The notes below the pieces were generated by a model. It worked only from the letters and a program-made list of their open reading frames with translations, was not told where the DNA came from and did not search any database. From positions 1-64,000 of the IMG/VR virus record IMGVR_UViG_3300023199_000127: 64,000 nt of DNA; one strand, 5' to 3'. Origin of the DNA: a virus. This document shows positions 1 through 38,700 of the stretch, one piece after another; within the stretch, counting starts at the first letter, position 1; each line of letters opens with the position of its first letter. The position numbers and the translations under genes were made by a program.

Positions 1-72
1 TATCCCACACCGGTGAGCACAGATGGAGTGTGGCCCCAAGCAGGACAAGGGGCAGGTAACGGACGTGCTTCA

Positions 73-73
<1 letters not shown>
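1..73 (-). CDS. Hypothetical protein, 5' part only (MKHVRYLPLVLLGATLHLCSPVWD..., runs off the window)
   Basis: ATG at 73-71 with AGGAG (86-82) 8 nt upstream; frame open to the window edge; hydrophobic N-terminus. Confidence 0.55.
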
Positions 74-156
<83 letters not shown>

Positions 157-3968: not shown

Positions 3969-4514
3969 ATGAAGTTTCTACTCCGTTCAGAGTTCTTGAC
4001 GGCACTGGCTGCTTGGCTTGTGGCTGCCGCTACGCATCTTGGCTGGGACCTGCCGCCCGAGCTGATCTATGGTGGCGCCACCGTGATCTCGATTGCAGCC
4101 GGCGGTGTTGCTGTTCGTCGCAACAAGAATAACGGCAATGGCGCAGCAGCTCTCATGCTCCTGGTAACCCTCGGTCTGGCCCTCCCTGCCTGCTCTACGG
4201 TGCAGGCCGGTATTGCTGCTGGCCAGCAGGTGCTCTCCCGCTACATTGTGGTGGTGAAGGGTGAGTTCAACGGCAAGATCGTGTTCAATGCGCAGCACGT
4301 GGTCGTGGACGGTTCTGGAGATGGCCTGGTTTACCTGAAGGATGCCAAGACTGGTATCGTGGTGTTCAGCTACCCTGTCCAGGGTGAAGTGTGTCGCGCG
4401 TGGGCCATTGTCCCGGTGGATTCGAATCCCCCGATCGCGTTCCGTGACGCTGACGTTGATGCGACTCTCAAGAAGCTCAACGAAGCTCCTGATGCCGAAG
4501 TGGTGGAGCAGTAA
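3969..4514 (+). CDS. Membrane protein, 181 aa: holin-like two-TM N-terminus followed by an internal lipoprotein-type signal (LALPA-C)
   Basis: GAGG RBS; three hydrophobic segments; RRNK precedes the third, which ends in Cys. Confidence 0.8.
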   Translation: MKFLLRSEFLTALAAWLVAAATHLGWDLPPELIYGGATVISIAAGGVAVRRNKNNGNGAAALMLLVTLGLALPACSTVQAGIAAGQQVLSRYIVVVKGEFNGKIVFNAQHVVVDGSGDGLVYLKDAKTGIVVFSYPVQGEVCRAWAIVPVDSNPPIAFRDADVDATLKKLNEAPDAEVVEQ

Positions 4515-6278: not shown

Positions 6279-6310
6279 GACCCTCCCCGTTCTGGGGAGG
6301 GTCTCTTTTT
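6279..6310 (+). terminator. Intrinsic terminator downstream of the sigma gene
   Basis: GACCCTCCCC-gttct-GGGGAGGGTC perfect 10-bp stem followed by TCTTTTT. Confidence 0.85.
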
Positions 6311-6656: not shown

Positions 6657-7547
6657 ATGGCAATGGACCCGAATCAGAAAAAGCCCGCCTCGCCCTTCGG
6701 CAGTCGGGTAGCACAGCGCAATGAGAACTCCGATCCGATCGCAGACGAAGCTCCGCGACAGGACCCGGATCCTGTAGAGGTTTCCAAGGAGGAGGCACAG
6801 GAGCACGCCCTCGCTATCAAGAAGGAGTTCTCCATAGAGGTTCTGGAGGAGCCTAAGCCGGGCCCCAAGATCGCTGACTACCTGTCCAAAGCAACTATGG
6901 ATCAGCTCAGTCATGAGCAGATCAAGGCCATGAACACCAATGTTGGTGGCACCAACAACTGGGCTGAACCGGTCATGGTATGTCGTGACCATCTTTGCCC
7001 CTACCAGGACAAGTGTCCGTTGTTCAAGGCGAAGGTGCCTCGCCCGATTGGGCATGACTGCCCAGTCGAGCTCACCATGATCAGATACCTTAAGCTCAAT
7101 CTGATGAACAACCTGCCGCCTGAAGACCGCGGTGACCCGTTCATTGAACTGCAGATTGACAGCTTGGTCGTGTCTATCCTCGCCCAGTCTCGTGCTCGTA
7201 CCAAGTGGGCTATCGACGCCGGCGACATCGAGCAGGATGATGTGAAGGGTGTGGATCAGAAGGGTAATCAGATCGTGGGTAAGGTGCTGCATCGTGCACT
7301 ACACATCATGAAGGACTTCTCCAAACAAGAGAAGGAGCTCATGGCCAAGCTGCTTGCCACGCCCCAGGATCGTGCCAAGGTCGATCGTGAAGGTCTGCAT
7401 GACCGCTCCAAGCGGGCTGCAGAGCTTGGCGATCGTATTGCAGCCAAGATCGCTGAGAAGAAAAAGAAGATGCGTACCGGTGAGGTGTATATCATCGAGC
7501 GCACCGAGATTCAGGACGCGGAGTACAAAGTCCAGGACGAGGAGTAG
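6657..7547 (+). CDS. Putative terminase small subunit-like protein with a Cys cluster (start may be ATG 6663)
   Basis: First gene of the packaging block; CRDHLCPYQDKCP...CPVE cluster; helical C-terminus LLATPQDRAK; function inferred mainly from position. Confidence 0.55.
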   Translation: MAMDPNQKKPASPFGSRVAQRNENSDPIADEAPRQDPDPVEVSKEEAQEHALAIKKEFSIEVLEEPKPGPKIADYLSKATMDQLSHEQIKAMNTNVGGTNNWAEPVMVCRDHLCPYQDKCPLFKAKVPRPIGHDCPVELTMIRYLKLNLMNNLPPEDRGDPFIELQIDSLVVSILAQSRARTKWAIDAGDIEQDDVKGVDQKGNQIVGKVLHRALHIMKDFSKQEKELMAKLLATPQDRAKVDREGLHDRSKRAAELGDRIAAKIAEKKKKMRTGEVYIIERTEIQDAEYKVQDEE

Positions 7548-7550
7548 TCC

Positions 7551-10268
7551 ATGAAGGGCAACTTCTACAAGGCCCTGTTCGGCACCCTGGACAAGCCTGT
7601 CGGGCTCAAGAAAGACGGCAGCGCTCTCTACCAGATCATTCACGGCATCAGGCGCCCCAATCGCTGGGCGCCTGGTGCCTTCGAGGCCATGAAGCCTGAT
7701 CATCCTGGCTTCCCTGGTGGTCGTGCCCAGGAGTACTTCCTGGACCTTGAAACGCAGGGTTTGCGTACGTCTCGTTGGGACCGGTGGCTGGGCGTCCCTG
7801 CACGACGCGATATCGACGCTCTGGAGCTCTCTCAGGTGTCTTTCGCCCGGAAGACCACTAAGGGGCTTGAATTCATCCTGGGCGATGCAGAGGGCCAGCA
7901 GAAGGCCTTCACGGACATCATCAACCCCGAGCTACTGCAGCAGCACAAGATCGGCTCGGTTGATGACCTCGCCGGCAAGCACGCCAGTCCATTTCTCAAT
8001 GCTCTTTCCCAGCAGAATGTGAAGGGGTACTGGGACTCGGCTATCCACGTCGAAGGGAATACTCTGCGTGGTGTGCTCGAGAGGCATGTGCAGCATGTGG
8101 TGCAGGGCGGTGAGACCCAGAAGTCCATCGGCTATGTCGACCAGATGCTCAGCACTATGCTGAAGGACATCGACTCTGGTGAGAATGTGCATCTATCTGG
8201 TTGGAACGTGGGATTTGACTGGGGTCGTATTCGTGAGGTTGCGCAGGGCGATGAGAGGGTGATGCGCAAGGTGCGCCGTCTCATGACTGCTCAAGCCCAG
8301 GGCACGTTCAAGATTCAGGATAAGTCTCGACATTTCAAGTCCATGGTCTGGGACGCTATGGTCGCAGATCCCTCGGTTGTTCCCTCATTCACCGACTATG
8401 CCAAACTCGAGCAAGTTGTGAAGAAGGGTGGGGACCCGAAGCACGCACTTGTGGAACACAGTGCGATGCGGGACTTTATGGACGTGATGTCCGAATCAGA
8501 TGATGCCATGCGGCAAAGCCGACTGCACAGTCGGTTTACGGACGCGCTAGAGGCAGGGGCTGATCCTCACCTTGCCCAGGAGCTCACAGAACGTCTATCC
8601 GGTGTGCGTACGTATGCAGACTGGGAAGAGGCAGCCCATGGTCTAAAGCAGACTGACGACCACACCAGGGCTCTCAGGAACCTGTTTGAGAGGGGATTCA
8701 AGCCTCATGGTGGCAAGATGTCCACCAGGCATATGTCGCTCCTCGGCGCCGCCGGCCGCGGCGACGGGGTGCTAGACACGGGCTTCTCGTTCGTTCTCGG
8801 CTGGAAACAGGAGAACGTGGCAGAGGCCCTAGTAGATGTTCTCCCGGAGACTCAAGCGAATGAGCTTCGCGAGCTCATGAAGCGTGGTGTGCACGACTCT
8901 GATATCGATGTCCTTCTATCCGAGCAGGTTGGTCGTCATCTCGAAGATATCGCTGCAGCTGGGCCGAACGATACACGGTTCAAGGCCCTGATCGGGAACA
9001 CTATCCAGAATACGGATGCAATGGCCTCGGATGTCTCTGCCCGCATGCAGCTGATGCTGCAGCTGAAGAGAGAGGTGGCCAATGCACAGGCAAACCAGTC
9101 CATGGATGCTGCTCGTGCCATCAACAAGGTTGATGACATGAAGGGCAATAAGGGTATCTGGTTGGCCGGTATGATGGCGGCTTCCGGCTTGTACATGTTG
9201 CAGTCCTGGAATCAGAGTCCCGAAGAGATCGAGGTGCGTACACCCCGAGCGGTGCGGCAGCCTACGAGCTACTGGGATCAGATCAGTGGTATTGATCCCT
9301 CTCAGCTACATAAGGCTAATGTCTCCGATTTCGGATCTGGCCGTGACGTTTTCACTCAACTCCTTGGAGGTAGCTACTCCCCTAATATTGACTGGGTGCC
9401 TGCCTCCGCATTGGGCATGCGGGGCAAGCAGCTGGATAGTGCTTTGGGAGAGTACGAATCTGGTCACTACCAAAATACAGCTGGTCCTGGTACCCCCTCT
9501 AGGTTCCAGGAAACGGTCATGCTTGGTAACTACTACCACAGCGTGGCTACGCACATGTTCGGAGATGCTATTGAAAGTATCGAGTATCCTGTGCGAGATC
9601 CTTACCTGAAGGTGTCTGGCCGTGTTGATGCTGTTCTCAAGTCTGGTATTCCTCTGGAAATCAAGACTGTGGAGACCGCCGAGGATGTAATGCAGATGCG
9701 TGAGGGAAAGCCCACACACGTGTCACAGGCTAACTTCTACGCATATGCTCTCAATCAGCCGTACGCCTACCTGGGTTACTTTGCACGTGACAATCCCCAG
9801 GTTTTCCGATTCTTCCGAGTACCGGTCGATCACAATCGTTTGATGCAGGACTATGCCGCTTCCCAGACATCTCTTGGCGAACTGCGGGATAAGGGGATGA
9901 CCTCCAAGGTACGTAAGGACTTCCAGTCTATCCCTGACCGTATCTACCACGATTTCATGCCCTTTAGTGAAGAGGGTGTCCACTACGTAGACCACGATCA
10001 TATGGTCATGCCTGGCGTGGCACCTGGGGCCTTGAACCCCATCCCCGCCATGGACAGGCCCGGTGATTTTGCCCATCTGCTGCGTCAGAGGTTCCAGAAC
10101 ATGGGCTATGGTGGGTTTGTCCAAAATGCTGGTAGAATGAATAAGAGCAAGATTGCGGACAAGTTCCGCCGTTCTGCGGATGCGAATCCTGCTATGAGAC
10201 CGTTTGTTCGTACTACTACCCGTCGTACCGGGGTGCACGCATCTCGGGTGGAGGCCTGCGCATGCTAG
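7551..10268 (+). CDS. 905-aa protein with an N-terminal DEDDh (DnaQ-like) 3'-5' exonuclease domain and a C-terminal PD-(D/E)XK (RecB/Cas4-like) nuclease domain
   Basis: ExoI DLET (7743), ExoII NVGFD (8205-8219), ExoIII HDSDID (8892-8909); GRVDAV..LEIKT (9627-9665) plus QANFY. Confidence 0.75.
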   Translation: MKGNFYKALFGTLDKPVGLKKDGSALYQIIHGIRRPNRWAPGAFEAMKPDHPGFPGGRAQEYFLDLETQGLRTSRWDRWLGVPARRDIDALELSQVSFARKTTKGLEFILGDAEGQQKAFTDIINPELLQQHKIGSVDDLAGKHASPFLNALSQQNVKGYWDSAIHVEGNTLRGVLERHVQHVVQGGETQKSIGYVDQMLSTMLKDIDSGENVHLSGWNVGFDWGRIREVAQGDERVMRKVRRLMTAQAQGTFKIQDKSRHFKSMVWDAMVADPSVVPSFTDYAKLEQVVKKGGDPKHALVEHSAMRDFMDVMSESDDAMRQSRLHSRFTDALEAGADPHLAQELTERLSGVRTYADWEEAAHGLKQTDDHTRALRNLFERGFKPHGGKMSTRHMSLLGAAGRGDGVLDTGFSFVLGWKQENVAEALVDVLPETQANELRELMKRGVHDSDIDVLLSEQVGRHLEDIAAAGPNDTRFKALIGNTIQNTDAMASDVSARMQLMLQLKREVANAQANQSMDAARAINKVDDMKGNKGIWLAGMMAASGLYMLQSWNQSPEEIEVRTPRAVRQPTSYWDQISGIDPSQLHKANVSDFGSGRDVFTQLLGGSYSPNIDWVPASALGMRGKQLDSALGEYESGHYQNTAGPGTPSRFQETVMLGNYYHSVATHMFGDAIESIEYPVRDPYLKVSGRVDAVLKSGIPLEIKTVETAEDVMQMREGKPTHVSQANFYAYALNQPYAYLGYFARDNPQVFRFFRVPVDHNRLMQDYAASQTSLGELRDKGMTSKVRKDFQSIPDRIYHDFMPFSEEGVHYVDHDHMVMPGVAPGALNPIPAMDRPGDFAHLLRQRFQNMGYGGFVQNAGRMNKSKIADKFRRSADANPAMRPFVRTTTRRTGVHASRVEACAC

Positions 10269-10834
10269 GCAAGCTTTCTGGTTTCACCTCATACTTTGGC
10301 CGTCAGGGTCTGGGCAAGACCCTTTTGCGTGGTGCTGCATCCATGAACCCCATTGATATCGCTCGAGGTGTCGGCGCAAGAGGCGCTGGCAACCGAGAGA
10401 CATCGATGGGTACCCACTTCATGAAGCAGGTAGGCGCTACTATGCGCGGCGCCGGTACCACGTGGAAATCTGCTCGTCAGAAGGGCATGGGATTCACGGA
10501 TATGGCCAAGCACTACTGGAAGGGTCACAACCTCTCCGATGTGGCTGCTGACTTGGGCGTGGAAGGCATGCGCCGTACTCCCAAGGGTGATATCCGACGG
10601 AACATGTTTGTCAGGCGCACTGTGCTTGGCGCCATGGGCGCCAGCACAGCTGCCAGCTACATGATGGGTAGTGACAACGCTGTATCCAACACGGTTGGTT
10701 TTGCCCAGCAGGGATTGGTTCATGCTGGGGTGAGTGCAGGGCTTGGTGCGTACAAGCCCGGTCTTGGTGCCGCCTACGCCGGGTGGGCCGGACTCAACAT
10801 GATGCGTCGTGGCGATAACTTTGGACCTTTCTAA
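10262..10834 (+). CDS. Gly/Ala/Met/Arg-rich basic protein, probable internal virion (ejection) protein
   Basis: Composition, amphipathic/hydrophobic C-terminal segments, position next to the terminase. Confidence 0.7.
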   Translation: MLGKLSGFTSYFGRQGLGKTLLRGAASMNPIDIARGVGARGAGNRETSMGTHFMKQVGATMRGAGTTWKSARQKGMGFTDMAKHYWKGHNLSDVAADLGVEGMRRTPKGDIRRNMFVRRTVLGAMGASTAASYMMGSDNAVSNTVGFAQQGLVHAGVSAGLGAYKPGLGAAYAGWAGLNMMRRGDNFGPF

Positions 10835-11679
10835 TGCTTGGTAAGTTGCTTGGTAGTATCTCGCGCCAGAGAGGCGTGCAACGTGATCTAGCCAATATGG
10901 CTGCTTCGGGAAATCGTGGCCGTATTGGTCGCTTCCTTATGGGTAGTAAGGAGATTGCTAAGGGCACCTCTAAGTTTGTGCCTGGTGCTACTCGAGATAT
11001 CGGCAAGTCTGTTGGATGGTATGCCGGTGCTGGAGCTCTAGAGGAACTTGGTGAGCGCACTGAGAACGACAAGGTAGCCGGCCTGACTGGTGTGGCCTCA
11101 TGGTACATGCGCACACGCGGATTCCGTTCTGCACTGCGAGCCCCTCTGCAGGGTGTTAGAGCAGCCTCCAGTGGGCGCATTCGTGGTGCCAGTGACTGGA
11201 TGATCAAGAAGTACAACCAGGTAGCTTATTGGCCTGACCGAGCTATTGCTGGCGTGGCAAAGCGTACCCCTGGTGGTGCAAAGAACTTCATGCTTGGCTC
11301 CAGGACCAATCGTGTACCTGGCCCCTTCCGGCCGATCTACGGTGCCGCAGAGGTCATGAGCTCCGTGGTGGGTGGCTCAATGGACCGTTTGCGCTACGGT
11401 CTCCGTACTCCGACAAATCGAGGAGTGATGGGTCGGCTCATGCGCGCTAAGCATCCCTACTGGGGTGCTGTGGGTATGGGGGCTGCACTGGGTGCTACGC
11501 GCAGCGTTCAGCAGCGCGAGCACCTTTCTGGGACTAATAAGTGGTATGCAGCTCCCAAGGGTGGAATCAATCCTAGTAATTACAGATCCATCACGTTTGA
11601 AAACTCGCGTGGATATCGTCGCACCACAATGGGTAGCGACCGTATGTCCCAGCGCATGGCCAGTGGGGGGATGCGCTAA
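10834..11679 (+). CDS. Gly/Ala/Arg-rich basic protein, probable internal virion protein
   Basis: Same composition as its neighbours; TAATG coupling on both sides. Confidence 0.7.
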   Translation: MLGKLLGSISRQRGVQRDLANMAASGNRGRIGRFLMGSKEIAKGTSKFVPGATRDIGKSVGWYAGAGALEELGERTENDKVAGLTGVASWYMRTRGFRSALRAPLQGVRAASSGRIRGASDWMIKKYNQVAYWPDRAIAGVAKRTPGGAKNFMLGSRTNRVPGPFRPIYGAAEVMSSVVGGSMDRLRYGLRTPTNRGVMGRLMRAKHPYWGAVGMGAALGATRSVQQREHLSGTNKWYAAPKGGINPSNYRSITFENSRGYRRTTMGSDRMSQRMASGGMR

Positions 11680-12401
11680 TGCACGGTCCCTATCAGGGTC
11701 TCACCATAGACGATGGTGGTGCAGCCAATCAGGAGATGCATTTCCTGGATGACTTCGGTCTGGGCTGGGCTGGTATCCCGCTGTATATGGCCACAGAGAT
11801 GATGGTTGGTCGCATGACTGGCGGTAAGGGGATGGCCAAGATCCTCCGGAAGAGCCAGAAGGCTGCCTACCGTTCTCTCACTGGAGTGACAGGCTTTGGG
11901 CTCAAGGAGCCCGGTGCAGGATCTGTGCATAGGTTTAATGTCCATGCTAGTGCTGCACAGAGGAGTGGACAACTCCCCCAAGAAGCACGTCGCTATATGC
12001 GCCTTAAGAAGGACCTAAAGGGCTCAAGACTCTTGCGTGGTAAGGGTAATGTTGCCGAAGCTTTGATGCAGAAGGGTGGGTCATTGCGCAACATGTCCCA
12101 AAGCTATGGACGTGGTGCAGCAGCCAAGATCTATGGTGCAGCTACAGCTGGCCGACTGGTGAGAGGTGCCGCTGTAATTCCCTTGATGCATGCCTTTGTC
12201 GGCATGGGTAGGTCTATGGCAGAGTCCATTATGGATTGGGAACCTCAGCAAGCTGATGATCCCCGTGTGCAGTTCGGTGGCTACTACGCTGATACGCGTA
12301 CGGCGATGACACAGAGGCAGGCGTCTATCCAGGCTATTCACAACTCTGGAATTGCAGCAAGGAGTGCGCTTGCCAACGAGGCTGCTCACATCCATAGCTA
12401 A
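11679..12401 (+). CDS. Gly/Ala/Arg-rich basic protein, probable internal virion protein
   Basis: Composition; C-terminal TQRQASIQAIHNSGIAARSALANEAAHIHS; TAATG coupling. Confidence 0.7.
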   Translation: MHGPYQGLTIDDGGAANQEMHFLDDFGLGWAGIPLYMATEMMVGRMTGGKGMAKILRKSQKAAYRSLTGVTGFGLKEPGAGSVHRFNVHASAAQRSGQLPQEARRYMRLKKDLKGSRLLRGKGNVAEALMQKGGSLRNMSQSYGRGAAAKIYGAATAGRLVRGAAVIPLMHAFVGMGRSMAESIMDWEPQQADDPRVQFGGYYADTRTAMTQRQASIQAIHNSGIAARSALANEAAHIHS

Positions 12402-12940
12402 TGCCCCAGCTACACCCTAATACCATGGTGTACGACGGAGTGAGAGCTTGTCGTGCACGCGAGCTTGGTTCCCCCTATGACTCTTTCCATGCTGTGAAGG
12501 TCGAGACTCATTGGCTGCCGGAAATACGATGCGACGGACGTACGTCATTTACGACGTATGATGGCCAGGTAGCAGCAGAGGATCTAGTGCCGGGGCACTG
12601 GCTGAAGATGCCCCGGCACCAGTTTGATGGCCATACACCCCTGGTGGCTCCTGAGCATCGTGGCACTGTAGATACACATGAGGCTTTCTATACCTTGATG
12701 CGCATGTTCAGTGAGGGGCCGGCTAAGCTTCTGGACATGGATGACTCAGAAATACCTGAGTGGCGAACTAGCAAATGGCTCCCTCTTCCGGTAGATGAGA
12801 GCATGGTGAGATATCACACTGCAATGGTCCGCTGGGACGAAAACGCTTGGTGGTTCCGTGTTTATGCGGTACAAAATAGTGTGGAGCCCCTGGTGTCCGT
12901 GGGTGATTCATACACGATGGCATACGGGATTTTGCTATGA
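12401..12940 (+). CDS. Free-standing Hint/intein-like protein lacking catalytic residues, 179 aa
   Basis: QLHPNTMV resembles block A; VAAEDLVPGHWL resembles WIPASEVVPGDWV in the adjacent intein; WFRVYAVQ..SYTMAYGILL resembles blocks F/G; no Cys1, TxxH or terminal HN. Confidence 0.6.
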   Translation: MPQLHPNTMVYDGVRACRARELGSPYDSFHAVKVETHWLPEIRCDGRTSFTTYDGQVAAEDLVPGHWLKMPRHQFDGHTPLVAPEHRGTVDTHEAFYTLMRMFSEGPAKLLDMDDSEIPEWRTSKWLPLPVDESMVRYHTAMVRWDENAWWFRVYAVQNSVEPLVSVGDSYTMAYGILL

Positions 12941-15900
12941 GTGCAGGTAAGGATGATGTCTTTCTGGATCCCAATTACAACGACTTGGGACTTCCGTATA
13001 TCCCCGAGAGGGATTACCGAGGGAGAAGGTACGAACCCTTTGGCCCTCCGGACAAGGATAACAAGCGGCTCCACTTCTGCACGCAGTGCCAGCTTTACTA
13101 CAGGAAGCTGCACCAAAAAGGCATTACCACCAAGTTCTGTCAAACCGCCAACAATGGGCACTCCTTCCTACCGAATTGTGCCGGCGACGCTTCTCAGCTC
13201 GCCGACGATTTGACCATTGAAGACTTTGATGGGGACGTTGAGGAATACAACGCTGCGGTCATCAATGTGGATCCTGTGTCTTGGGCTGAAATCGAGTTTG
13301 GTTGGAAGGCTCGTTGGTACCAGAAGGAAATGCTGCGTTGTACTTCGCAGTTCAAGGCCACGCGTGCTGGCCGTCGTGTAGGCAAGACCGAGGCGATGGC
13401 AGTCAAAACTCTACACGCTGCCTGGACCAATAAGGGCTTTGAGGTCCTCATCATTGCACCCTACCAGCCGCAGGTGCAGAAGGTTTTCGAGATGATCCGA
13501 CGATTCCTGTCGGAATCCGTCTCCATGAAATCCTCTATTGATATTGATCGTGAATCACCCTTCCAGCAGATCACGCTCAACAACGGTTCTACCATCCGCG
13601 GATTCTCTTCGGGCGCCAGAACCGGTGCCAAGTCTGACAAGATTCGTGGTCAGACTGCCGACCTGATTATCCTGGACGAGGTGGATTACCTGGCGGACGA
13701 TGACATTGAGGTCATCGCCGCTATCCTGGCATCAGAGCCTGACACTAATATTATGGCATCCTCCACTCCAACTGGCATCCGCCAGAAGCTGTGGAGCTGG
13801 TGCTTTGAGGCTGGGACCCCTGTGATGACTTCGACGGGTGAGCGTCCGATTGAGTCCCTGCGGATCGGGGACGAAGTCTTAGGCTGTTCTGGTATCTCCG
13901 AGAAGGTCACGCAGGTTTTCGACCACCACTACCGTGGCCAGATGGTCGAACTGAGCTTTAAGAAGCTCAGTCGAACGCTCAAGAGCACCGCGGAACATCC
14001 TCATCTGGTCAAAAAGGGGCATTGCTCTCCGAAGTGGATCCCGGCATCTGAGGTGGTCCCTGGAGACTGGGTTGGCCTGACTCTTCCGCGCCAGACGCAC
14101 TGTAGGATTCCTCGTCCGGAATTCCAGACGGAAGAAATGGGGTTGAGCCGTTCGGAACGGCCCGACGCTATCTCGAAGATCTTGCGCGACGGTGGTCGCG
14201 GACTTGCCGACGATCGTCGTGGGCAGTCCTACGAGAAGGCCCTTCATGCTTTGGACTGGGTGGAACGGGATCGAGACAGGATCAAGCGGTTTCTTCGTAT
14301 TGTCGGCATCTTTGCCGGAGAGGGGTCCTATCTTGCCGATGGTCGCGGTCTTTCCTTGGTTTTCCGTCGTGATGAACAGATCGGGCAGGAGGTGCGACAG
14401 TTCTTCGATCTCATGTCTAATGCTGTTGGAGGTGGCAAGACGAAGATCGACACCCTGTCCAATGGCCGTGGTGAGTGGGATCAGATTACTGCCCCTGGTA
14501 GCTATCTTCCCCTGATTATGGACCATCTCGTGGGCAGGGGCTGCGCCACGAAGCGATTCCATGATTGCCTGATGACCCATGAGCTGCGCGGCTATCTTTT
14601 CGAGGGGTACATGGACGCAGATGGCCATGAGCGCAAGAATGGCTCGTTGGCACTGATTACGAAGTCTCCCGATCTTGCTGATCAGACTCTGCGTCACTAT
14701 GCCTCTTCGGATGCTGCGGTCTCCTGTAAGGAGCGGGAAGACTATTGGGAGGTCTATGTTTCTCTGAATCCCACCAACCAGGTGAAGTGGTTCGAGGGCA
14801 TGCCTTTCTACATGGTCGAGGACATCGTTTTCTCCGAGTTCGATGGCAGGGTCTATAACATCGAGACTGGATCCACGCATACGTACTCGGCCAATGGGTT
14901 TGCTACGCATAACTGTATCGACAAGACACAGCGGTTCAAGGAGTTCTGGTTCGTCTCCTCTGAGTCCCCGGCGTGGACTTCTGAGACCGAACATTTCTTC
15001 AAGTCGCAGTACTCCAGCTCTGGCTACATGCGAGAGTTCAATGCTGAGTTCGGCATGGAGGCTGTGGGTGTCTTCCGAACCGATGATATCCAGACGGCTA
15101 TCAAGAAGTTCCAGTACAAGGACTGCAAGTACCACGAAGAGTGTAAGTACGTTATGGGAGTGGACTGGAACCATCCTGTAACTGGTACTCATATCGTGGT
15201 TGTTGAAGCCCGTATGAGCGCCCAAGATGGTCTTAGGTATCGTTGTGTCCATAAGGAGATCGTTCGCAAGAATCAGTTCTCTCAGCACTTTGGTGTTGAG
15301 CGCATCATGAAGCTAATGAAGAAGTGGCATGTGGACTACTGTTATGTCGACGCCGGCTATGGTGAGGTACAGGTGGAGATGCTGCACAAGTACGACGTGG
15401 ACCACAAGTCAGAACGCACCCAGTTCCGCAAGAGGGTGAAGGCCGTGAATATGGCCCAGAACGTATTGATCAAGGACCCTGGTACGGGCATTGATATCAA
15501 GAAGCCTGCTAAGCAGTTCATGGTCTCTGTCTTCGCAAAGGACATGGAAGAGAATCGTGTGGAGCTTTCGTACGTCGAGGATACGCAGACCCGTATCCTG
15601 GAGGACGAGCTGGGTATGGCGGACATTGGTATTGTCCAGCAGATGCGCAACTTCAAGGTGGAGAAGATCAGTCCCACTGGCATCCCCAGGTATTCCGATG
15701 GATTTGAGCACACCCTAACTGCTCTCATGTTGGCACACATGGGCTTTGCGCTTGAGATGTCTGACATGCGTATGGTTCGTCGCACGTCTCGACCCGTAGC
15801 CCAGGCTGGTGGCCTGGGCGAAAAGGGTCCCTCAGACCAAGAGAGATCCCAGATTAAGCGTGATCGCATGTTTGATCGTGACAGATTGGCGCCGGCGGAT

Positions 15901-16122
15901 CGTGCTGAAAAGATGGGAGAGAACGTCCGCAGGCACGAAGATTACGAGAAGGAGAAGGAGCTCTGGGAAGCAAACAATATGGAGCCGGTAATCCATCCCG
16001 AGAGTGAAGAGGAAGAAGCTCGACAAAAGCCCAAACGTCGTCGTACCATGAAGGGCATGGGAGTCATCAAGCGCCATAAGCGTCGCCGCGGTACTAGAGG
16101 CGGTGGCAGGAGTACTTTTTAG
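12937..16122 (+). CDS. terL: Terminase large subunit interrupted by an intein (1061-aa precursor, 690 aa spliced)
   Basis: Walker A RAGRRVGKT, Walker B LIILDE, motif III SSTP; RNase H-like nuclease motifs GVDWN and YVDAGYG. Confidence 0.95.
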   Translation: MSAGKDDVFLDPNYNDLGLPYIPERDYRGRRYEPFGPPDKDNKRLHFCTQCQLYYRKLHQKGITTKFCQTANNGHSFLPNCAGDASQLADDLTIEDFDGDVEEYNAAVINVDPVSWAEIEFGWKARWYQKEMLRCTSQFKATRAGRRVGKTEAMAVKTLHAAWTNKGFEVLIIAPYQPQVQKVFEMIRRFLSESVSMKSSIDIDRESPFQQITLNNGSTIRGFSSGARTGAKSDKIRGQTADLIILDEVDYLADDDIEVIAAILASEPDTNIMASSTPTGIRQKLWSWCFEAGTPVMTSTGERPIESLRIGDEVLGCSGISEKVTQVFDHHYRGQMVELSFKKLSRTLKSTAEHPHLVKKGHCSPKWIPASEVVPGDWVGLTLPRQTHCRIPRPEFQTEEMGLSRSERPDAISKILRDGGRGLADDRRGQSYEKALHALDWVERDRDRIKRFLRIVGIFAGEGSYLADGRGLSLVFRRDEQIGQEVRQFFDLMSNAVGGGKTKIDTLSNGRGEWDQITAPGSYLPLIMDHLVGRGCATKRFHDCLMTHELRGYLFEGYMDADGHERKNGSLALITKSPDLADQTLRHYASSDAAVSCKEREDYWEVYVSLNPTNQVKWFEGMPFYMVEDIVFSEFDGRVYNIETGSTHTYSANGFATHNCIDKTQRFKEFWFVSSESPAWTSETEHFFKSQYSSSGYMREFNAEFGMEAVGVFRTDDIQTAIKKFQYKDCKYHEECKYVMGVDWNHPVTGTHIVVVEARMSAQDGLRYRCVHKEIVRKNQFSQHFGVERIMKLMKKWHVDYCYVDAGYGEVQVEMLHKYDVDHKSERTQFRKRVKAVNMAQNVLIKDPGTGIDIKKPAKQFMVSVFAKDMEENRVELSYVEDTQTRILEDELGMADIGIVQQMRNFKVEKISPTGIPRYSDGFEHTLTALMLAHMGFALEMSDMRMVRRTSRPVAQAGGLGEKGPSDQERSQIKRDRMFDRDRLAPADRAEKMGENVRRHEDYEKEKELWEANNMEPVIHPESEEEEARQKPKRRRTMKGMGVIKRHKRRRGTRGGGRSTF
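13801..14913 (+). mobile_element. Intein (371 aa) with a LAGLIDADG homing endonuclease in TerL
   Basis: Starts CFEAGTPV; block B STAEHP; IVGIFAGEGS and FEGYMDADG motifs; ends VYNIETGSTHTYSANGFATHN followed by Cys+1. Confidence 0.95.
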
Positions 16123-34419: not shown

Positions 34420-34917
34420 ATGAGCGACGAACAGCCCGTCAACACTGAACAGTCCCCTGTCGACCAGAGGAATCCCGAGGACAAGGTCCCGGGCCTCGAG
34501 CTGACCTGGGGCATGGTAGAAGCCATGGAGATGGATGAGGCCGAGGAGAAGAACTTCATTTCTGCAGCACAGCAGGCGAAGCAGTCCTTCCGTAGCCCTC
34601 AGTTCATCTTCCTCGCCGGCCGCCCGTACATCCATCGCACGGTGAACCGTCGCGAGATGTCCAAGCTGCGCACGGATGTGGCATTGCGTATCAACCAGCT
34701 TGCTGAGAACGCACCTGAGGGACTGGATCCCCAGCAGGCGCGCGCGCAGCTGATGAAGGACACCATGGAGGAAGCCCTGGTCGAGGCATGCAGCATCTAT
34801 CCGAAGTATGATCGAGTTTCGATCCGCGAAGAGGACGCTGGCATCATCACGAGCCTGCATGATTCCATCGTCGAAGCTTCGGGCTACAACCAGCCTGCAT
34901 CCCCCATTCGCCTGTAA
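34420..34917 (+). CDS. Tail assembly chaperone 1
   Basis: Small acidic helical protein between the tube genes and the TMP. Confidence 0.7.
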   Translation: MSDEQPVNTEQSPVDQRNPEDKVPGLELTWGMVEAMEMDEAEEKNFISAAQQAKQSFRSPQFIFLAGRPYIHRTVNRREMSKLRTDVALRINQLAENAPEGLDPQQARAQLMKDTMEEALVEACSIYPKYDRVSIREEDAGIITSLHDSIVEASGYNQPASPIRL

Positions 34918-34928
34918 GGGGGAGATCG

Positions 34929-35705
34929 GTGATCCGATCTCCTTGGGACCTCCCCCGTGAAGTGAGGGAGCTGGTACCGCGACTCAAAAAGGACCATGAT
35001 GTCCTATACGTGGTGGAGCTCCAGAATGACACAGGGGAGGTCTATGCGATCTTCCGCCCAATGCGGAAGGAGGAGGTGCGTTACCTCGAAGAGAACGCAC
35101 CGTACCACGATGAGTGGTGGATGGAGGGATGGATTATCGGCCACACTTTGGTGTGGCCTGATCCACATGTTCTCGATGAATGGCTTGCTGGGACCGTTGA
35201 GTCGCTTGGTGACTCGATCATCGAGGCTTCCGGATGGTCTTCGGTCGAGGCAACCGTTGAGGGTATTCACCTCGCTAGGCAAGAGGCGACGTCACTGGAC
35301 TCTGCCATTCTCGCGTTTATCTGCAAGGCATTCCCGTCCATCCATCCGCGGGACCTCCAGAAAATGACCTTGCTCGAGACTCAGATCATGCTGGCCCGTG
35401 CAGAGATGATCCTGGGCCAGCCACTCGATCTGCAGATGTTCCTGGATCCGGAGGGGTACCAGAAGAGGCTGAAGCGCCAGCAGCGCTTCCAGCCGCCTGC
35501 CATGCTCCCGGATGATCCGGGTGCATTCGACACTCCGCCGGAGGCCATGCAGCGGCCTCGCCGGCCAACCCGCCCGCATCACAGCTATCTGCCCGATACT
35601 CCGATGGACGAGAAAGAAATGCTTTCTCCGGACGCAGCCACTAAACTTAGGAGTGGAGATTCCCTCCGAGATGAAATGGCTGCCCATCAGGACTTCCTTG
35701 GCTAA
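34929..35705 (+). CDS. Tail assembly chaperone 2 (paralogue of chaperone 1)
   Basis: Own GGGGAG RBS; AGTVESLGDSIIEASGW aligns with AGIITSLHDSIVEASGY. Confidence 0.7.
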   Translation: MIRSPWDLPREVRELVPRLKKDHDVLYVVELQNDTGEVYAIFRPMRKEEVRYLEENAPYHDEWWMEGWIIGHTLVWPDPHVLDEWLAGTVESLGDSIIEASGWSSVEATVEGIHLARQEATSLDSAILAFICKAFPSIHPRDLQKMTLLETQIMLARAEMILGQPLDLQMFLDPEGYQKRLKRQQRFQPPAMLPDDPGAFDTPPEAMQRPRRPTRPHHSYLPDTPMDEKEMLSPDAATKLRSGDSLRDEMAAHQDFLG

Positions 35706-38700
35706 TGGCGATTGAACGAGAGAACCTCCAGAACGAGCGCGGGTACAACCCGTATCGTGACCAGATCCTGGGCCAGCGAGGGACAGATGAGCGCCATCCC
35801 GCCGAGACTCTGCGGGAAAATGAGGCTCAGACCAAGGCTCTGGAGATCCAGAAGGCCCAGAATCCGCTACTCCAGCGGGTGGCCCAAGTCGCCTTCATCA
35901 CCTCTGGCGTCTATATGCTGGGCCGTACGAGGGCCAGAGATGCCCTCAGGAGCGCCTTGGATGCTCTGGGGTACGCTGGGAGGTCTGGGCTCCGTGTCGC
36001 CCGTGAGGGCGCCAGGAGCGCCGTCAGAGGGGCTGTAGGATCCTTCCCGGAGACCAGGAGCCTAGAGAGAGCCTTCCATGGGGTCGATGACCCGGAGATT
36101 CGCAACCTCGAGCTGATCGATACGCTGGAGGGAATACTTAACTTTAGGCGAACAGCTCTAGATGAGAATGGGTTCGCAAGAGGGCTCAGGGCTTCTCGGG
36201 CTGGTGGGCCTGCTGGATCAACCTTTGACCAGATCGCCACTGAGCATGTGGCAGCGCGGTACAACCTCGACTCTCTCGAGGATCTGCGCCATGTGACTGT
36301 CGGTGACGTCATGGAGAACGCCAATCTGCAGAGGCAGATCGGCGAACGTCAGTTCCGCACGCTCAGTGAAGCCTCGGAGCTCGGTCTCATCAATGAGCGC
36401 ACGGTCCTGCACCGTAACCGCAACGTCCGAGGGCTGTACACGACGCCTGAGGGTTTCATTCAGGACACTCGATGGGCTACCGCCGGCAACGCACTCCGGG
36501 GCCTGTACACAGCCACCAGGAACTTCTCTGTTGCTGGCTTCCGGCCCGTTGAGTTGTTCGCTGGTATGGGCAAGGCTTTCACTCAGGGTGAATTCTTCGG
36601 TGAGCTGGGCGTTGGTACTGTCATCGGTCGTGGGCGTAAGATCACGGCACAGGACGGTATTAGCTTTGCCATGGGTGGCAACATCTATCGTCAGCAGCGT
36701 GGTGGGTTCCAGCATGCCGGTAGTGGCTTCAAGCTCTTCAGCAGTAAGGAAGGTCAGTCTGCTGGTCTGATGGAGTCATTCCAGGCCATCATGGGCATGC
36801 ACCCGTTGCAGTCTCATCGTGTGGCTCAGATTAGCCAAGCGGAAGCAGACGCTCATCCGGTAAGAGATTTCTGGCAACAGCTTCAGGACCTGGTGGGTGT
36901 TGGTCCTGGGTTCAAGACCAGACCACATGTTGCTGAGACGTTCGTAGTTTATCCAATGCGCCGGCGCCAAGCCGGGCGCATGGGCGGCGGATATGTGCCT
37001 TACTCCGAAGCTGGTGGTGCGCTAGCAGGTCGACAGGGTGTCGGGTTCGGCTACGTGTCCAGACGTGATCAGAGGCGTGGCTTCTTCGAGAAGGTAGTAA
37101 ACCAGCTACAGGGTCTCAATGAGAGTGATGCTGTTGCTGCGCGTGCAGATGAATCTCGCGGATTCATGGATCGTGTTGCACGAACCATGGGCGTGGATTC
37201 TGGCGATGAGCTCTCCGCTCTTTACGGTAACCAGCAACGTGGGGCTTTCCTGAGCCCTGCAGGCATGGCCGAGTTCCGACGCAGCGGTACTATCCGCGGT
37301 CAGTCCTTGGTCGTCCAGCGTCCTACTACTGCAGCATCCTATGGAACAAGGCCCGCACGCTTCCATACTGGAGAGGTAGGCGAAGCCTCATATGGCCGCG
37401 CCACCGGTCGCACCACAGTAAGGAACTACGTTGTCCACGATGGCGGTGTGCTGGGTAATGTCAACTTGGTTGGTACCTACATGACGACGCGTCTCAACAA
37501 CCTGTTGAGCGCGACTCTGAACTACGGTATCCGTCCCGGCTCCGGCTCGTACGGCTGGGTTGGGAACATAGCCAAGATCTATGGTGGCTATCAGGCCATC
37601 AACATGGGCTTGGACTACCTGTCGTACGCCGACTATCTCATGGAGGAGTACACGGGTGTCAGTCCCAAGAAGTGGGGACTTAAGGGTTACATTGGTCTCC
37701 GCACTGGTCTCCAGAAGGCCCGCGAGGTGACAGGTGTGACCTCTGCGGCTGACTGGATTGAAGACACGATGCCGGGTTCCGTCGACAGCCCGTTGTCTCA
37801 GGCGTTGAGATTTGCTGGTCCCATGGCAGCTACGTTCCTTAGAGGACGTGGTCCAGGCCTGTCAGGGCTTGCTGCCGGTACCTTCCTTGGCTACGGTGAC
37901 ATCCAGAAGAGTTCTGAGGATGTCTATGATGAGCTGATTGGTGACAAGGATGTAGCGTATCGCCGTGGCAGGTGGTGGATGCTGGGCCGGCAGCCGTTCG
38001 GTGGAGGCCCGGTCGAATTCTATGGCAAGTCCTGGATTGCACGACAGCTGTCCGACTACCAGTACACGGACTCTCTGTATGGATCAAAGCAGGAGTATTG
38101 GCGTCATGTGAACAAGACTCCGACTCCCTCAAACCTCTTCAACTTGTTTGAGAGTCCTGAGGAATACCTGAGCCAGAAACACTACTATACGCGCCCCTAT
38201 CCGGTTGATGCAGACGGAAGTCCTGCACGTATGTCAGAAGCAATCTTCAATGAGCTCCCTGAGGAACGCGATGTGATCCCGGATGCTGGTGCGCGACTGG
38301 GCCTACAAGATGGTGGTACTCACCACGATAGACGTGCCATCGTTGGTCCGTACGGCGCTGGTGGGAAGCTTGGCTACTACGCTGATAAGATCTCTGAGCT
38401 GAGCGGCATCTACAAGTTTGCTCTGTGGGATCTGCCTGGCTTCTCCAACAACACCGATAATCGCCGGCTGGCATCGCCCGAGGCGATGGCCAGCAGGTCT
38501 CGAGAGTTCTACGACAACTCGATGGGTGGCATGCTTGGTCTCTCTGAGGCCTATCGCCGATTCCTGCCCGATGAGAAGTTCAATAAGGACTATAACCCGA
38601 TCCCCAACCAGATGCCGGATTGGCTACCTGGTATTCGGAGCTCCTTTGAGAAGGACCGGCGCTACTACATGGACTTCACTCTGGGTGATCCGTACACCAA

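What the first reader, a model, noticed from the sequence alone, without database searches (positions are those of the whole stretch)
7551..10268. DEDDh exonuclease and RecB/Cas4-like nuclease fused in one protein inside the packaging operon
All DEDDh residues appear present (D65/E67, D223, H448/D453), spread over long helical insertions. A hydrophobic segment (GIWLAGMMAASGLYML) separates them from a PD-(D/E)XK domain (D693, E703-x-K705, QANFY). The gene lies between the putative TerS and the ejection-like proteins rather than in a replication module, so it could act on genome ends during packaging or after injection (end resection, circularisation, host DNA attack, counter-defence). No Cys4 Fe-S motif is visible, so it is not a canonical Cas4.
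Basis: partly seen in the sequence, partly recalled or inferred. Interest (0 to 1): 0.75.

Follow-up and report, generated by a model that had tools for sequence, protein, structure and literature searches.

The report
Two-nuclease protein in phage packaging operon
A 181-kb uncultured phage encodes, among its late head and packaging genes, one protein that joins a greatly expanded 3'-5' exonuclease, a greasy helix and a RecB/Cas4-type nuclease; this is a previously undescribed architecture, and it is probably a weapon carried by the virus particle rather than a replication or packaging enzyme.

Summary

- **N-terminal nuclease.** D65, E67, D223, H448 and D453 are five of only eight columns invariant across 27 relatives at about 20% identity. 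An AlphaFold model (pLDDT above 90) aligns residues 57-475 with RNase T, Pol III epsilon and TREX1 (Z 11-12). Two helical insertions account for the extra length.
- **C-terminal nuclease.** Residues 610-790 align with lambda-exonuclease-like enzymes and Cas4 (Z 12-12.6). There are no Fe-S cysteines, so it is not a canonical Cas4.
- **Modular family.** The fusion is conserved: a 3'-5' exonuclease (compact in some relatives, where it passes Pfam RNase_T), a Gly/Ala-rich hydrophobic helix, a linker, a cassette and a basic tail. The cassette is PD-(D/E)XK or, in about nine relatives, staphylococcal nuclease.
- **Fixed position.** The gene always lies between the TerS-like gene and basic Gly-rich proteins, upstream of TerL and portal.
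- **Accessory gene.** It is absent from 0305phi8-36 and most other relatives. In 0305phi8-36 the same PD-(D/E)XK cassette is cleanly inserted into gp145, a virion protein confirmed by mass spectrometry. The window's gp145 ortholog lacks the cassette.

Best reading (about 45%): a virion-delivered nuclease effector. No family member occurs in cultured phages. This is a new variant of known kinds, of moderate interest.

The parts
7551..10268 (+). Gene for the 905-aa two-nuclease protein (P0001)
   Evidence: The ORF is open, has a ribosome-binding site and is translationally coupled to both neighbours. The exhaustive search found 123 relatives.
7683..7730 (+). Short linear motif FEAMKPDHPGFPGGRAQ (aa 45-60) in the disordered N-terminal leader
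   Evidence: The same motif recurs at domain borders in more than 15 relatives, either N-terminal of the exonuclease or C-terminal of the PD-(D/E)XK domain. It occurs only once in this genome. pLDDT is below 50. Its function is unknown.
7719..8975 (+). Expanded DEDDh (DnaQ-like) 3'-5' exonuclease domain, aa 57-475. ExoI D65/E67 is at 7743-7751, ExoII N219-D223 at 8205-8219, ExoIII H448-D453 at 8892-8909. Two helical insertions lie at about aa 126-210 and 283-445.
   Evidence: The catalytic residues are invariant in 27 relatives. The three motifs match TREX1-like Plex9.1 colinearly. The model has pLDDT above 90. VIA-align gives Z 12.4 to RNase T, and Z 11.4 with rmsd 3.0 over 172 of 176 residues to Pol III epsilon.
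9153..9209 (+). Gly/Ala-rich hydrophobic helix (aa 535-553), a possible membrane segment
   Evidence: A hydrophobic 17-mer (Kyte-Doolittle mean mostly 1.1-2.2) lies 45-65 residues upstream of the FGSG motif in nearly all relatives that have that motif. It is usually preceded by net positive charge and is also present in the ~600-aa compact forms. Model confidence is low. A membrane role is an inference.
9222..9350 (+). Conserved but disordered linker containing the FGSGR motif (aa 558-600)
   Evidence: F594 and G597 are invariant in 27 relatives. pLDDT is below 50. The motif is repeated 2-5 times at about 280-aa spacing in proteins with tandem nuclease modules.
9378..9905 (+). RecB/Cas4/lambda-exonuclease-like PD-(D/E)XK nuclease domain (aa 610-785) with E678, D693, E703, K705, Q726 and Y730
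   Evidence: phrog_1706 E 7.6e-12. Foldseek matches lambda exonuclease, LHK-Exo, Cas4 and MGME1 with E down to 1e-4. VIA-align gives Z 12.6 to LHK-Exo and Z 12.4 to Cas4 SSO0001. The catalytic residues are kept in about half of the 27 relatives.
9906..10265 (+). Basic, disordered, conserved C-terminal tail (aa 786-905; GGxVQ, SKIxD, SRxE motifs)
   Evidence: The tail is conserved across relatives whichever nuclease cassette they carry. pLDDT is below 50. pI is 9.8.
6657..7547 (+). Upstream gene: TerS-like protein with an invariant Cys4 motif, homolog of 0305phi8-36 gp112
   Evidence: phrog_83 E 0.0037. 31% identical to gp112. Cys4 motif is invariant. A relative carries an intein inside that motif. 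Atlas leads point to Terminase_4. The TerS identity is not proven.
6279..6303 (+). Strong intrinsic terminator that closes the sigma-factor gene; the late operon starts downstream of it
   Evidence: 11-bp stem with 8 GC pairs followed by a T-run. No comparable terminator was found up to 23000.
10262..12401 (+). Three basic Gly/Ala-rich proteins (190, 281 and 240 aa), conserved downstream partners
   Evidence: Synteny holds in seven or more loci. pI is 10.2-11.6 with 13-18% Gly, similar to the virion proteins gp113-115 of 0305phi8-36. The only sequence link is the o240 C-terminus to the gp115 C-terminus (hhalign 78%).
12937..16122 (+). Large terminase containing an intein (aa ~289-660)
   Evidence: Terminase_6N plus Hint and intein hits. 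Relatives align as residues 10-290 plus 660-1007 with no insert.
35705..40192 (+). Ortholog of 0305phi8-36 virion protein gp145 that lacks the PD-(D/E)XK cassette which gp145 carries
   Evidence: blastp shows collinear blocks that skip gp145 aa ~1050-1285 and P0071 aa ~2088-2280. The insertion site lies between the invariant motifs GEARLPGEGYE and DRFxILADVAPYSQ.

Best explanation
Shown:
- The gene encodes one polypeptide with two intact nuclease active sites. The first is an N-terminal DnaQ-like DEDDh 3'-5' exonuclease enlarged by about 250 residues of helical insertions. The second is a C-terminal RecB/Cas4/lambda-exonuclease-type PD-(D/E)XK nuclease without an Fe-S cluster.
- The two domains are joined by a Gly/Ala-rich hydrophobic helix and a conserved disordered linker, and are followed by a basic disordered tail.
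- The protein belongs to a modular family that always occupies the same slot in the late morphogenesis operon of 0305phi8-36-like large myophages: TerS-like, then this gene, then basic Gly-rich proteins, then TerL, then portal.
- It is an accessory gene, not a core one.

Inferred:
- The protein is made late, is incorporated into the particle together with the neighbouring basic Gly-rich proteins, and is delivered with the genome at the next infection.
- The hydrophobic helix and the conserved linker and tail serve incorporation or membrane insertion.
- In the new host, the two domains attack DNA with free ends from both polarities: 3'-5' by the DEDDh domain, and 5'-3' or single-strand endonucleolytic by the PD-(D/E)XK domain. 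Likely targets are host DNA, plasmids, or competing or defence-related DNA. Acting mainly from ends would spare the phage's own packaged genome, whose ends are sequestered.
For: Active sites and folds:
- The five DEDDh residues are invariant in 27 relatives.
- Folds match at Z 11-12.6 with near-complete coverage of the solved domains. Foldseek and PHROG support the C-terminal domain.
- Compact relatives in the same slot pass Pfam RNase_T (P0022, 24.4 bits against a cut-off of 24).

Selection for nuclease function:
- The C-terminal cassette is replaced by an SNase domain in about nine relatives, at the same place or at the N-terminus.
- N-terminal extensions include DUF4406 and an extra ~850 residues.
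- All of about 45 examined members keep the layout exonuclease, hydrophobic helix, nuclease, tail.

Late structural context:
- The gene is translationally coupled within an operon containing TerL, portal and protease, with no internal terminator.
- Synteny is conserved in eight independent loci.

Virion link:
- The same PD-(D/E)XK subfamily is inserted cleanly into 0305phi8-36 gp145, which is annotated as a virion protein by mass spectrometry and sits next to the tape measure. It is also inserted into gp145-like giants in four IMG/VR genomes.
- Genomes carry the cassette either in gp145 or in this protein, never both: 4 versus 2, with 0 having both.
- The downstream basic Gly/Ala-rich proteins resemble virion proteins gp113-115 in position, size and composition.

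Not replication:
- A separate canonical RNase_T exonuclease ORF lies at about 162 kb.

Not core packaging:
- The gene is absent from 0305phi8-36, ME3 and WH1, and no match was found in 16 further relatives, five of them at least 97% complete.
Against: - There are no proteomic or expression data. No family member exists in 50,697 cultured phage records, so virion incorporation is pure inference.
- The mutual exclusivity with the gp145 cassette rests on 6 genomes. It is not statistically significant, since about 0.4 genomes with both would be expected by chance.
- Homology of the small neighbours to gp113-116 is not demonstrable by sequence.
- The hydrophobic helix with positive charges on its N-side fits an ordinary N-in membrane anchor equally well, which would favour the rival reading in which the protein stays in the producing cell.
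- A nuclease packed next to the genome needs an explanation for self-sparing, which here is only argued.
- Catalysis and polarity are inferred from family knowledge and were not measured.
Confidence: 0.45

Rival explanations
1. The protein is a late, membrane-anchored nuclease that stays in the producing cell. The hydrophobic helix acts as an N-in signal-anchor. This places the DEDDh domain at the cytoplasmic face and the C-terminal nuclease (PD-(D/E)XK or SNase) on the periplasmic side. There it would destroy host or unpackaged DNA at lysis, or the DNA of superinfecting phages and parasites.
For: - The hydrophobic segment is conserved, with net positive charge before it and often acidic residues after it.
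- In the short L010 form, a strongly basic N-terminus precedes a Gly-zipper helix and the nuclease.
- SNase, which replaces the cassette in relatives, is typically an extracytoplasmic, Ca-dependent enzyme, and surface-anchored thermonucleases have this layout (established knowledge).
- Expression is late.
Against: - In three relatives the SNase domain lies N-terminal of the DEDDh domain, on the supposed cytoplasmic side.
- In P0001 the helix is only moderately hydrophobic (KD 1.14 over 17 residues).
- The gene is embedded in the head and packaging operon, not with lysis or exclusion genes.
- The same cassette occurs inside the virion protein gp145.
Confidence: 0.25
2. The protein is a packaging or maturation accessory nuclease that works with the terminase. 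It would trim or polish concatemer or genome ends (for example when terminal repeats are formed), or clear unpackaged DNA from the motor.
For: - The gene lies immediately after, and is translationally coupled to, the TerS-like gene, in an operon with TerL.
- Relatives have other nucleases inserted in the same block: Endonuclease_7 in L001 and HNH before TerL in the P0079 contig.
- One relative (G001) has direct terminal repeats.
- Accessory HNH nucleases are required for cos cleavage in HK97-like phages (established knowledge).
Against: - 0305phi8-36 (6.5-kb terminal repeats), ME3 and WH1 share the TerS-like, TerL and portal genes but lack this gene. No match was found in 16 further relatives either.
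- The cassette can be swapped for the non-specific SNase and can relocate to a tail protein. That fits a destructive effector better than a precise end-processing enzyme.
- A hydrophobic helix has no obvious role in packaging.
Confidence: 0.15
3. The protein is a replication or recombination enzyme (proofreading, or recombination-end resection for circularisation through terminal repeats) that merely happens to be encoded in the late operon.
For: - DEDDh and lambda-exonuclease-like domains are the classical proofreading and recombination exonucleases.
- PHROG hits include RecE-like exonuclease families.
Against: - The genome has its own compact RNase_T-type ORF and another weak PD-(D/E)XK ORF outside the late region.
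- The gene's position is fixed in the structural operon in all eight loci.
- No annealase or polymerase partner lies nearby.
- The hydrophobic helix and the exchangeable SNase cassette are atypical for such enzymes.
Confidence: 0.07

Closest known systems
DnaQ-like DEDDh 3'-5' exonucleases (RNase T, Pol III epsilon, TREX1/2, Exo I; Pfam RNase_T PF00929)
   Same: It has the RNase H-like fold with ExoI (DxE), ExoII (NxxxD) and ExoIII (Hx4D) on the canonical secondary-structure elements. Z is 11-12.4, covering 165-190 residues of solved domains that are 170-210 residues long. A compact relative in the same genomic slot passes the Pfam threshold.
   Different: The roughly 175-residue core is spread over 420 residues by two helical insertions. 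P0001 itself hits no Pfam or PHROG model in this region. It is fused, through a hydrophobic helix, to a second nuclease and is encoded in a late structural operon.
RecB/Cas4/lambda-exonuclease-type PD-(D/E)XK nucleases (lambda Exo, LHK-Exo, Cas4 SSO0001, MGME1, Dna2 nuclease domain; phrog_1706)
   Same: It has the core fold and the catalytic E...D...ExK plus QxxxY motifs. Z is 12-12.6, Foldseek E is 1e-4, and phrog_1706 E is 7.6e-12.
   Different: It has no Fe-S cysteines, so it is not Cas4 sensu stricto. It reaches no Pfam threshold. It carries a conserved N-terminal AS-LG-RG / FGSGR extension and a basic tail. It behaves as a mobile cassette that also inserts into tail protein gp145.
Polyvalent or virion-packaged effector proteins of phages (Iyer, Burroughs and Aravind 2017, PMC5512222; P1 DarB/DdrB, MuF fusions, T4 Alt)
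   Same: It is a multi-domain enzyme encoded among virion genes of a portal-terminase phage. Its domain content varies between homologs (PD-(D/E)XK or SNase, DUF4406, long N-extensions). Delivery with the DNA is predicted.
   Different: That survey, as searched here, describes neither this architecture nor a 3'-5' exonuclease component. There is no MuF, portal or peptidase module. Packaging has not been demonstrated.
0305phi8-36 gp145 and virion proteins with exchangeable enzymatic domains in that lineage (Hardies et al. 2007, PMC2147016)
   Same: gp145 carries the same PD-(D/E)XK subfamily (profile E 9e-9; hhalign 87%; motifs GGFFD, VDIKT, QQLNFY). The lineage is known for structural proteins with swappable domains, including an SNase domain on the BtI1 hub protein.
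   Different: gp145 is a 1930-aa tail-module protein in which the cassette is an internal insertion. Here the cassette sits at the C-terminal half of a separate protein, fused to an exonuclease, in the head and packaging block.

Membership tests
DEDDh (DnaQ-like) 3'-5' exonuclease | ExoI motif D-x-E on the first beta strand | tested here: met
   D65 and E67 lie on strand 59-68. They are invariant in 27 relatives and align to the DLETTG motif of Plex9.1.
DEDDh (DnaQ-like) 3'-5' exonuclease | ExoII Asp (N-x3-D) after the fourth strand | tested here: met
   N219 and D223 in WNVGFDW follow strand 212-217. D223 is invariant.
DEDDh (DnaQ-like) 3'-5' exonuclease | ExoIII motif H-x4-D (the 'h' subtype) | tested here: met
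   H448 and D453 lie at the start of helix 450-470. Both are invariant.
DEDDh (DnaQ-like) 3'-5' exonuclease | RNase H-like fold superposable on solved members | tested here: met
   VIA-align gives Z 12.4 to RNase T, Z 11.4 (rmsd 3.0, 172 of 176 residues) to epsilon, and Z 10.5-10.8 to TREX1/2.
DEDDh (DnaQ-like) 3'-5' exonuclease | Curated profile match (Pfam RNase_T at gathering score) | tested here: not met
   P0001 has no Pfam hit, and RNase_T searched over the whole genome finds a different ORF. The compact relative P0022 does pass (24.4 bits against a cut-off of 24). This is a failure of profile sensitivity caused by the insertions, not of the catalytic features.
DEDDh (DnaQ-like) 3'-5' exonuclease | Metal-dependent 3'-5' exonuclease activity | not testable with these tools
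   This needs a biochemical assay.
PD-(D/E)XK nuclease, RecB/Cas4-like clade | Core alpha-beta-beta-beta-alpha-beta fold | tested here: met
   Z 12.6 to LHK-Exo, Z 12.4 to Cas4 SSO0001, and Foldseek E 1e-4 to lambda exonuclease.
PD-(D/E)XK nuclease, RecB/Cas4-like clade | Catalytic D ... (D/E)-x-K plus the QxxxY motif | tested here: met
   D693, E703, K705, Q726 and Y730 are present, and are kept in every relative that retains this cassette.
Cas4 sensu stricto | Four cysteines coordinating an Fe-S cluster | tested here: not met
   The protein has only two cysteines, C903 and C905, both in the tail.
Cas4 sensu stricto | Association with cas1/cas2 or a CRISPR array | tested here: not met
   The neighbours are TerS-like, TerL, portal and structural genes.
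Polyvalent / virion-packaged effector proteins | Two or more effector domains in one chain, with architecture varying among homologs | tested here: met
   DEDDh plus PD-(D/E)XK; the cassette is swapped for SNase; DUF4406 and long N-extensions occur; some relatives have tandem nuclease modules.
Polyvalent / virion-packaged effector proteins | Encoded among virion genes of a portal-terminase phage | tested here: met
   The slot between TerS-like and TerL/portal is conserved in eight loci.
Polyvalent / virion-packaged effector proteins | Physical presence in the particle and delivery into the host | not testable with these tools
   The only indirect evidence is that the same cassette occurs in gp145, a virion protein by mass spectrometry.
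Small terminase (applies to the upstream gene 6657-7547) | Significant profile or fold match to a TerS family | tested here: inconclusive
   phrog_83 E 0.0037; no Pfam hit; no PDB hit; Atlas leads to Terminase_4 at 0.78-0.81 and TM 0.32-0.52.

The most novel reading that the evidence does not exclude
A lineage of large contractile-tailed phages carries, in a fixed slot between its TerS-like gene and its internal virion proteins, a modular two-headed nuclease: a 3'-5' exonuclease, a membrane-type helix, and a swappable PD-(D/E)XK or SNase cassette. The protein would be packed into the particle and injected with the genome. A pair of opposite-polarity nucleases would then attack host, plasmid, competitor or defence DNA before any phage gene is expressed. 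The same cassette can alternatively ride in the tape-measure-adjacent protein gp145. This would be a new class of pre-formed, virion-borne DNA-degrading effectors.
Probability: 0.35. Interest if true: 0.75.

Novelty: new variant of a known kind. Interest (0 to 1): 0.55.

Why it matters
If the protein is virion-borne, it would be a natural example of a phage that ships ready-made nucleases with its DNA. That bears on how large phages survive the first minutes of infection, on host DNA shut-off, and on conflicts with plasmids, satellites and other phages.

Independently of function, three things are useful:
- It defines an undescribed family. No Pfam or PHROG model covers the expanded exonuclease domain, and no cultured phage carries a member.
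- It shows a DEDDh core that tolerates about 250 residues of insertions while keeping all five catalytic residues.
- It documents a PD-(D/E)XK cassette that moves between a head-operon protein and a tail protein at a precisely defined insertion site. This is a clean case for studying domain shuffling in virion proteins.

Tried and rejected
**Searches that gave little or nothing**
- Pfam on P0001 gave nothing above noise.
- phmmer against PDB gave nothing relevant. The A2 profile against PDB gave only a marginal E of 0.065, although all three Exo motifs matched colinearly.
- tblastn of P0001, P0013 and P0054 against 50,697 cultured phage records found no match.
- No PHROG covers the N-terminal domain. 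phrog_8809 and phrog_18798 hit only the SNase part of one relative.
- The ESM Atlas gave no usable lead for residues 50-530.
- Earlier notes from this scan hold no look-alike sequence.
- Literature searches for a DEDDh plus Cas4 fusion in phages, and for virion nucleases, found no description of this architecture. The paper that reports the 0305phi8-36 virion proteomics (PMC2171028) is not held, so gp145's virion status rests on the GenBank annotation.
- A phmmer check of the upstream ORF 3969-4514, run to see whether lysis genes lie nearby, was uninformative.

**Neighbours**
- Homology of the four small downstream ORFs to 0305phi8-36 gp113-116 could not be shown by hhalign. The only signal was the o240 tail against the gp115 tail at 78%.
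- The TerS-like alignment against PDB found nothing.

**Readings considered and rejected**
- Canonical Cas4: rejected, because there are no Fe-S cysteines and no cas genes nearby.
- Replicative proofreader: rejected, because a separate RNase_T ORF exists and the gene sits in the late operon.
- The hydrophobic helix as part of the mobile cassette: rejected, because the gp145 insertions lack it.

**Not done**
- The second structure-prediction job was not used, because no remaining question depended on it.


Full report
**1.
ORF 7551-10268 on the plus strand is open for 905 codons. It has a GAGGAG ribosome-binding site 8 nt before its ATG, which lies 4 nt after the stop of the upstream gene. Its own stop overlaps the ATG of the next gene.
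- D65/E67 in LDLETQG
- N219/D223 in WNVGFDW
- H448/D453 in HDSDID
- D693, E703-I-K705 and Q726..Y730
- the hydrophobic stretch 535-553

The protein has only two cysteines, both among its last three residues, so there is no Cas4-type Fe-S site.

**2. Both nuclease assignments survive testing.**
- *Sequence.* Sequence profiles alone are weak. Pfam finds nothing in P0001. PHROGs recognises only the C-terminal domain (phrog_1706, a Cas4-like family, E 7.6e-12).
- *Conservation.* An exhaustive HMMER search of 1.84 billion representatives found 123 relatives. In an alignment of 27 full-length ones (17-41% identical to P0001, most about 20%) only eight columns are invariant. Five of them are D65, E67, D223, H448 and D453.
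- *Profile against PDB.* A profile of this alignment matches the three Exo motifs of the TREX1-like exonuclease Plex9.1 colinearly, although at a marginal overall E of 0.065.
- *Model.* An AlphaFold2 model built on the alignment is confident (pLDDT mostly above 90) for residues 57-510 and 615-785. It is disordered for 1-56, 548-613 and 785-905.
- *N-domain fold.* VIA-align superposes residues 57-475 on RNase T (Z 12.4), on Pol III epsilon (Z 11.4, rmsd 3.0, 172 of 176 residues), and on TREX1/2 and Exo I.
- *C-domain fold.* Residues 610-790 superpose on LHK-Exo and lambda exonuclease (Z 12.6 and 11.3) and on Cas4 (Z 12.4). Foldseek agrees for the C-domain (E 1e-4).
- *Motif placement.* The motifs lie on the canonical secondary-structure elements.
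- *Insertions.* The roughly 175-residue DEDDh core is spread over 420 residues by two helical insertions, at about 126-210 and 283-445.

I could not measure active-site distances directly.

**3. The fusion is conserved and the family is modular.**
- *Shared layout.* All examined members have a 3'-5' exonuclease, a Gly/Ala-rich hydrophobic helix usually preceded by positive charge, a conserved disordered linker (FGSGR), a nuclease cassette and a basic tail.
- *Exonuclease module.* It can be compact. P0022 (609 aa), from a complete 193-kb genome with terminal repeats, passes Pfam RNase_T across the whole model. Other ~600-aa forms score with DNA_pol_B_exo1 or RNase_H_2, which belong to the same superfamily.
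- *Cassette.* It is PD-(D/E)XK in about half of the 27. In about nine relatives it is a staphylococcal-nuclease domain instead, either at the same position or at the N-terminus.
- *Extensions.* Some members add DUF4406 or about 850 extra N-terminal residues. Some have only helix, cassette and tail. Some have two to five tandem modules.
- *Recurrent motif.* A short motif, FEAMKPHxxxFPGGRxQ, recurs at domain borders.

Replacing one nuclease by an unrelated one while the scaffold stays fixed argues that nuclease activity as such is what is selected.

**4. Context.**
- *This window.* The window is the first 64 kb of a 180.8-kb IMG/VR virus record. Its ends overlap by about 145 bp, so it is a circular assembly. 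The portal, TerL, protease and capsid genes are distant relatives of Bacillus phage 0305phi8-36. A strong terminator at 6279-6303 closes the sigma-factor gene, and no comparable one follows up to 23 kb.
- *Gene order.* The order is TerS-like (Cys4 motif, homolog of 0305phi8-36 gp112), this gene, three basic Gly/Ala-rich proteins, a 179-aa protein, TerL (here with an intein), a 626-aa protein, portal, protease. The same order recurs in eight independent metagenomic loci, including those with compact or short forms.
- *TerS label.* The TerS label is only weakly supported.
- *Small neighbours.* They have no detectable sequence homology to 0305phi8-36 gp113-116, except one C-terminal stretch. They do share position, size, high pI, Gly/Ala content and a G-x-P-F end with gp113-115. 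gp113 and gp114 are annotated as virion proteins by mass spectrometry.
- *Other nucleases.* The genome has a separate compact RNase_T-type ORF near 162 kb and a weak PDDEXK_1 ORF near 109 kb.

**5. The gene is accessory and its cassette also travels in a virion protein.**
- *Absent from relatives.* 0305phi8-36, Acinetobacter phage ME3 and Bacillus phage WH1 lack the gene in this slot.
- *Match inside gp145.* The family profile hits 0305phi8-36 only inside gp145. This is a 1930-aa protein annotated as a virion component by mass spectrometry, lying between the tail chaperonins and the tape measure.
- *The window's ortholog.* The window's 1495-aa protein (35705-40192) is the gp145 ortholog but lacks exactly this segment. 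In gp145 and in P0071 the cassette is inserted between the invariant motifs GEARLPGEGYE and DRFxILADVAPYSQ. In the window these motifs are only about a dozen residues apart.
- *Census.* Of 20 IMG/VR genomes with gp145 orthologs, four carry the cassette inside the giant ORF and have no separate protein of this family. Sixteen have neither. The window's genome and G001 have the separate protein and no second copy. The pattern is suggestive, but it is too small to be statistically significant.

**6. Mechanism.**
- *Shown.* There are two intact nuclease active sites in one late-expressed, accessory, modular protein in a structural operon.
- *From family knowledge.* DEDDh enzymes remove nucleotides from 3' ends by two-metal catalysis, with the His as general base. 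RecB/Cas4/lambda-exonuclease-type domains degrade from 5' ends or cut single strands.
- *Favoured reading (about 45%).* The protein is a particle-borne effector delivered with the genome, which then attacks end-bearing DNA from both polarities. The hydrophobic helix and the disordered conserved segments would serve incorporation or membrane insertion. The phage's own DNA would be spared because its ends are sequestered.
- *Rival 1 (about 25%).* An ordinary N-in membrane anchor keeps the protein in the producing cell, with the second nuclease facing the periplasm. This fits the charge pattern and the SNase swap. It does not fit the relatives that carry SNase at the N-terminus.
- *Rival 2 (about 15%).* A terminase-associated end-processing role fits the position and the other nucleases inserted in this block. 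It does not fit the gene's absence from relatives that share the packaging genes.
- *Rival 3 (about 7%).* A replication or recombination role is unlikely.

**7. Comparison with what is known, and verdict.**
The domains belong to well-known superfamilies, but the protein is not a Cas4. The closest concept is the polyvalent, virion-packaged effector proteins of Iyer et al. 2017 (PMC5512222). As searched here, that survey does not describe this architecture or a 3'-5' exonuclease component. Hardies et al. 2007 (PMC2147016) documented exchangeable enzymatic domains on virion proteins in this lineage, including an SNase domain on a hub protein. I found no description of this fusion or of the gp145 cassette.

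This is a new variant of known kinds. The function remains inferential. Interest is moderate (0.55).

Noticed in passing
window 1-143 and genome 180642-180792: The two ends of the 180.8-kb record overlap by about 145 bp, so the assembly is circular and probably the complete genome, although IMG/VR classes it as linear. The (GT)n run has 16 units at 95-126 but 20 units in the copy at 180736-180775. This points to length polymorphism in the sampled population or to an assembly slip.
   Followed up: partly
window 12937-16122: The large terminase (1061 aa) carries an intein of about 370 aa at residues ~289-660, with Hint and intein-splicing hits. Relatives' TerL proteins align as residues 10-290 plus 660-1007 without it.
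   Followed up: partly
window 6657-7547; L007:7105-8880: The TerS-like (gp112) family has an invariant four-cysteine motif (C109, C114, C120, C135). In one relative an intein of about 300 aa sits inside this motif, which suggests the motif is functionally critical. No solved structure matches the family.
   Followed up: partly
window 35705-40192 (also 34420-34917 and 34929-35705): The 1495-aa protein is the ortholog of 0305phi8-36 virion protein gp145. The two preceding small genes weakly match the split tail chaperonins gp143 and gp144. In gp145 and in several metagenomic orthologs, a PD-(D/E)XK nuclease domain is inserted at one precise site between two invariant motifs. As far as I could find, this has not been described for gp145.
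   Followed up: yes
window 10262-12401: Three consecutive proteins (190, 281 and 240 aa) are very basic (pI 10.2-11.6) and rich in Gly and Ala, with glycine-zipper-like stretches. Two of them start with MLGKL, and the first ends in FGPF. They resemble 0305phi8-36 virion proteins gp113-115 in position and composition, but not detectably in sequence.
   Followed up: partly
L001:14159-14692; contig of P0079 (gene at 7068-7406): Relatives have extra small nuclease genes inserted in the same TerS-to-TerL block: an Endonuclease_7 gene in one, and an HNH gene directly before TerL in another. They may be homing endonucleases or packaging helpers.
   Followed up: no
genome 161908-162486 (minus strand) and about 109146-109259 (minus strand), outside the window: A separate 260-aa ORF passes Pfam RNase_T, and a 294-aa ORF weakly matches PDDEXK_1. 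These are likely the phage's ordinary replication or recombination exonucleases.
   Followed up: no
P0093, P0089, P0095, P0100, P0105 (relatives found): Some relatives contain two to five FGSG motifs spaced about 280 residues apart, which implies tandem arrays of the linker-plus-nuclease module in a single protein.
   Followed up: no
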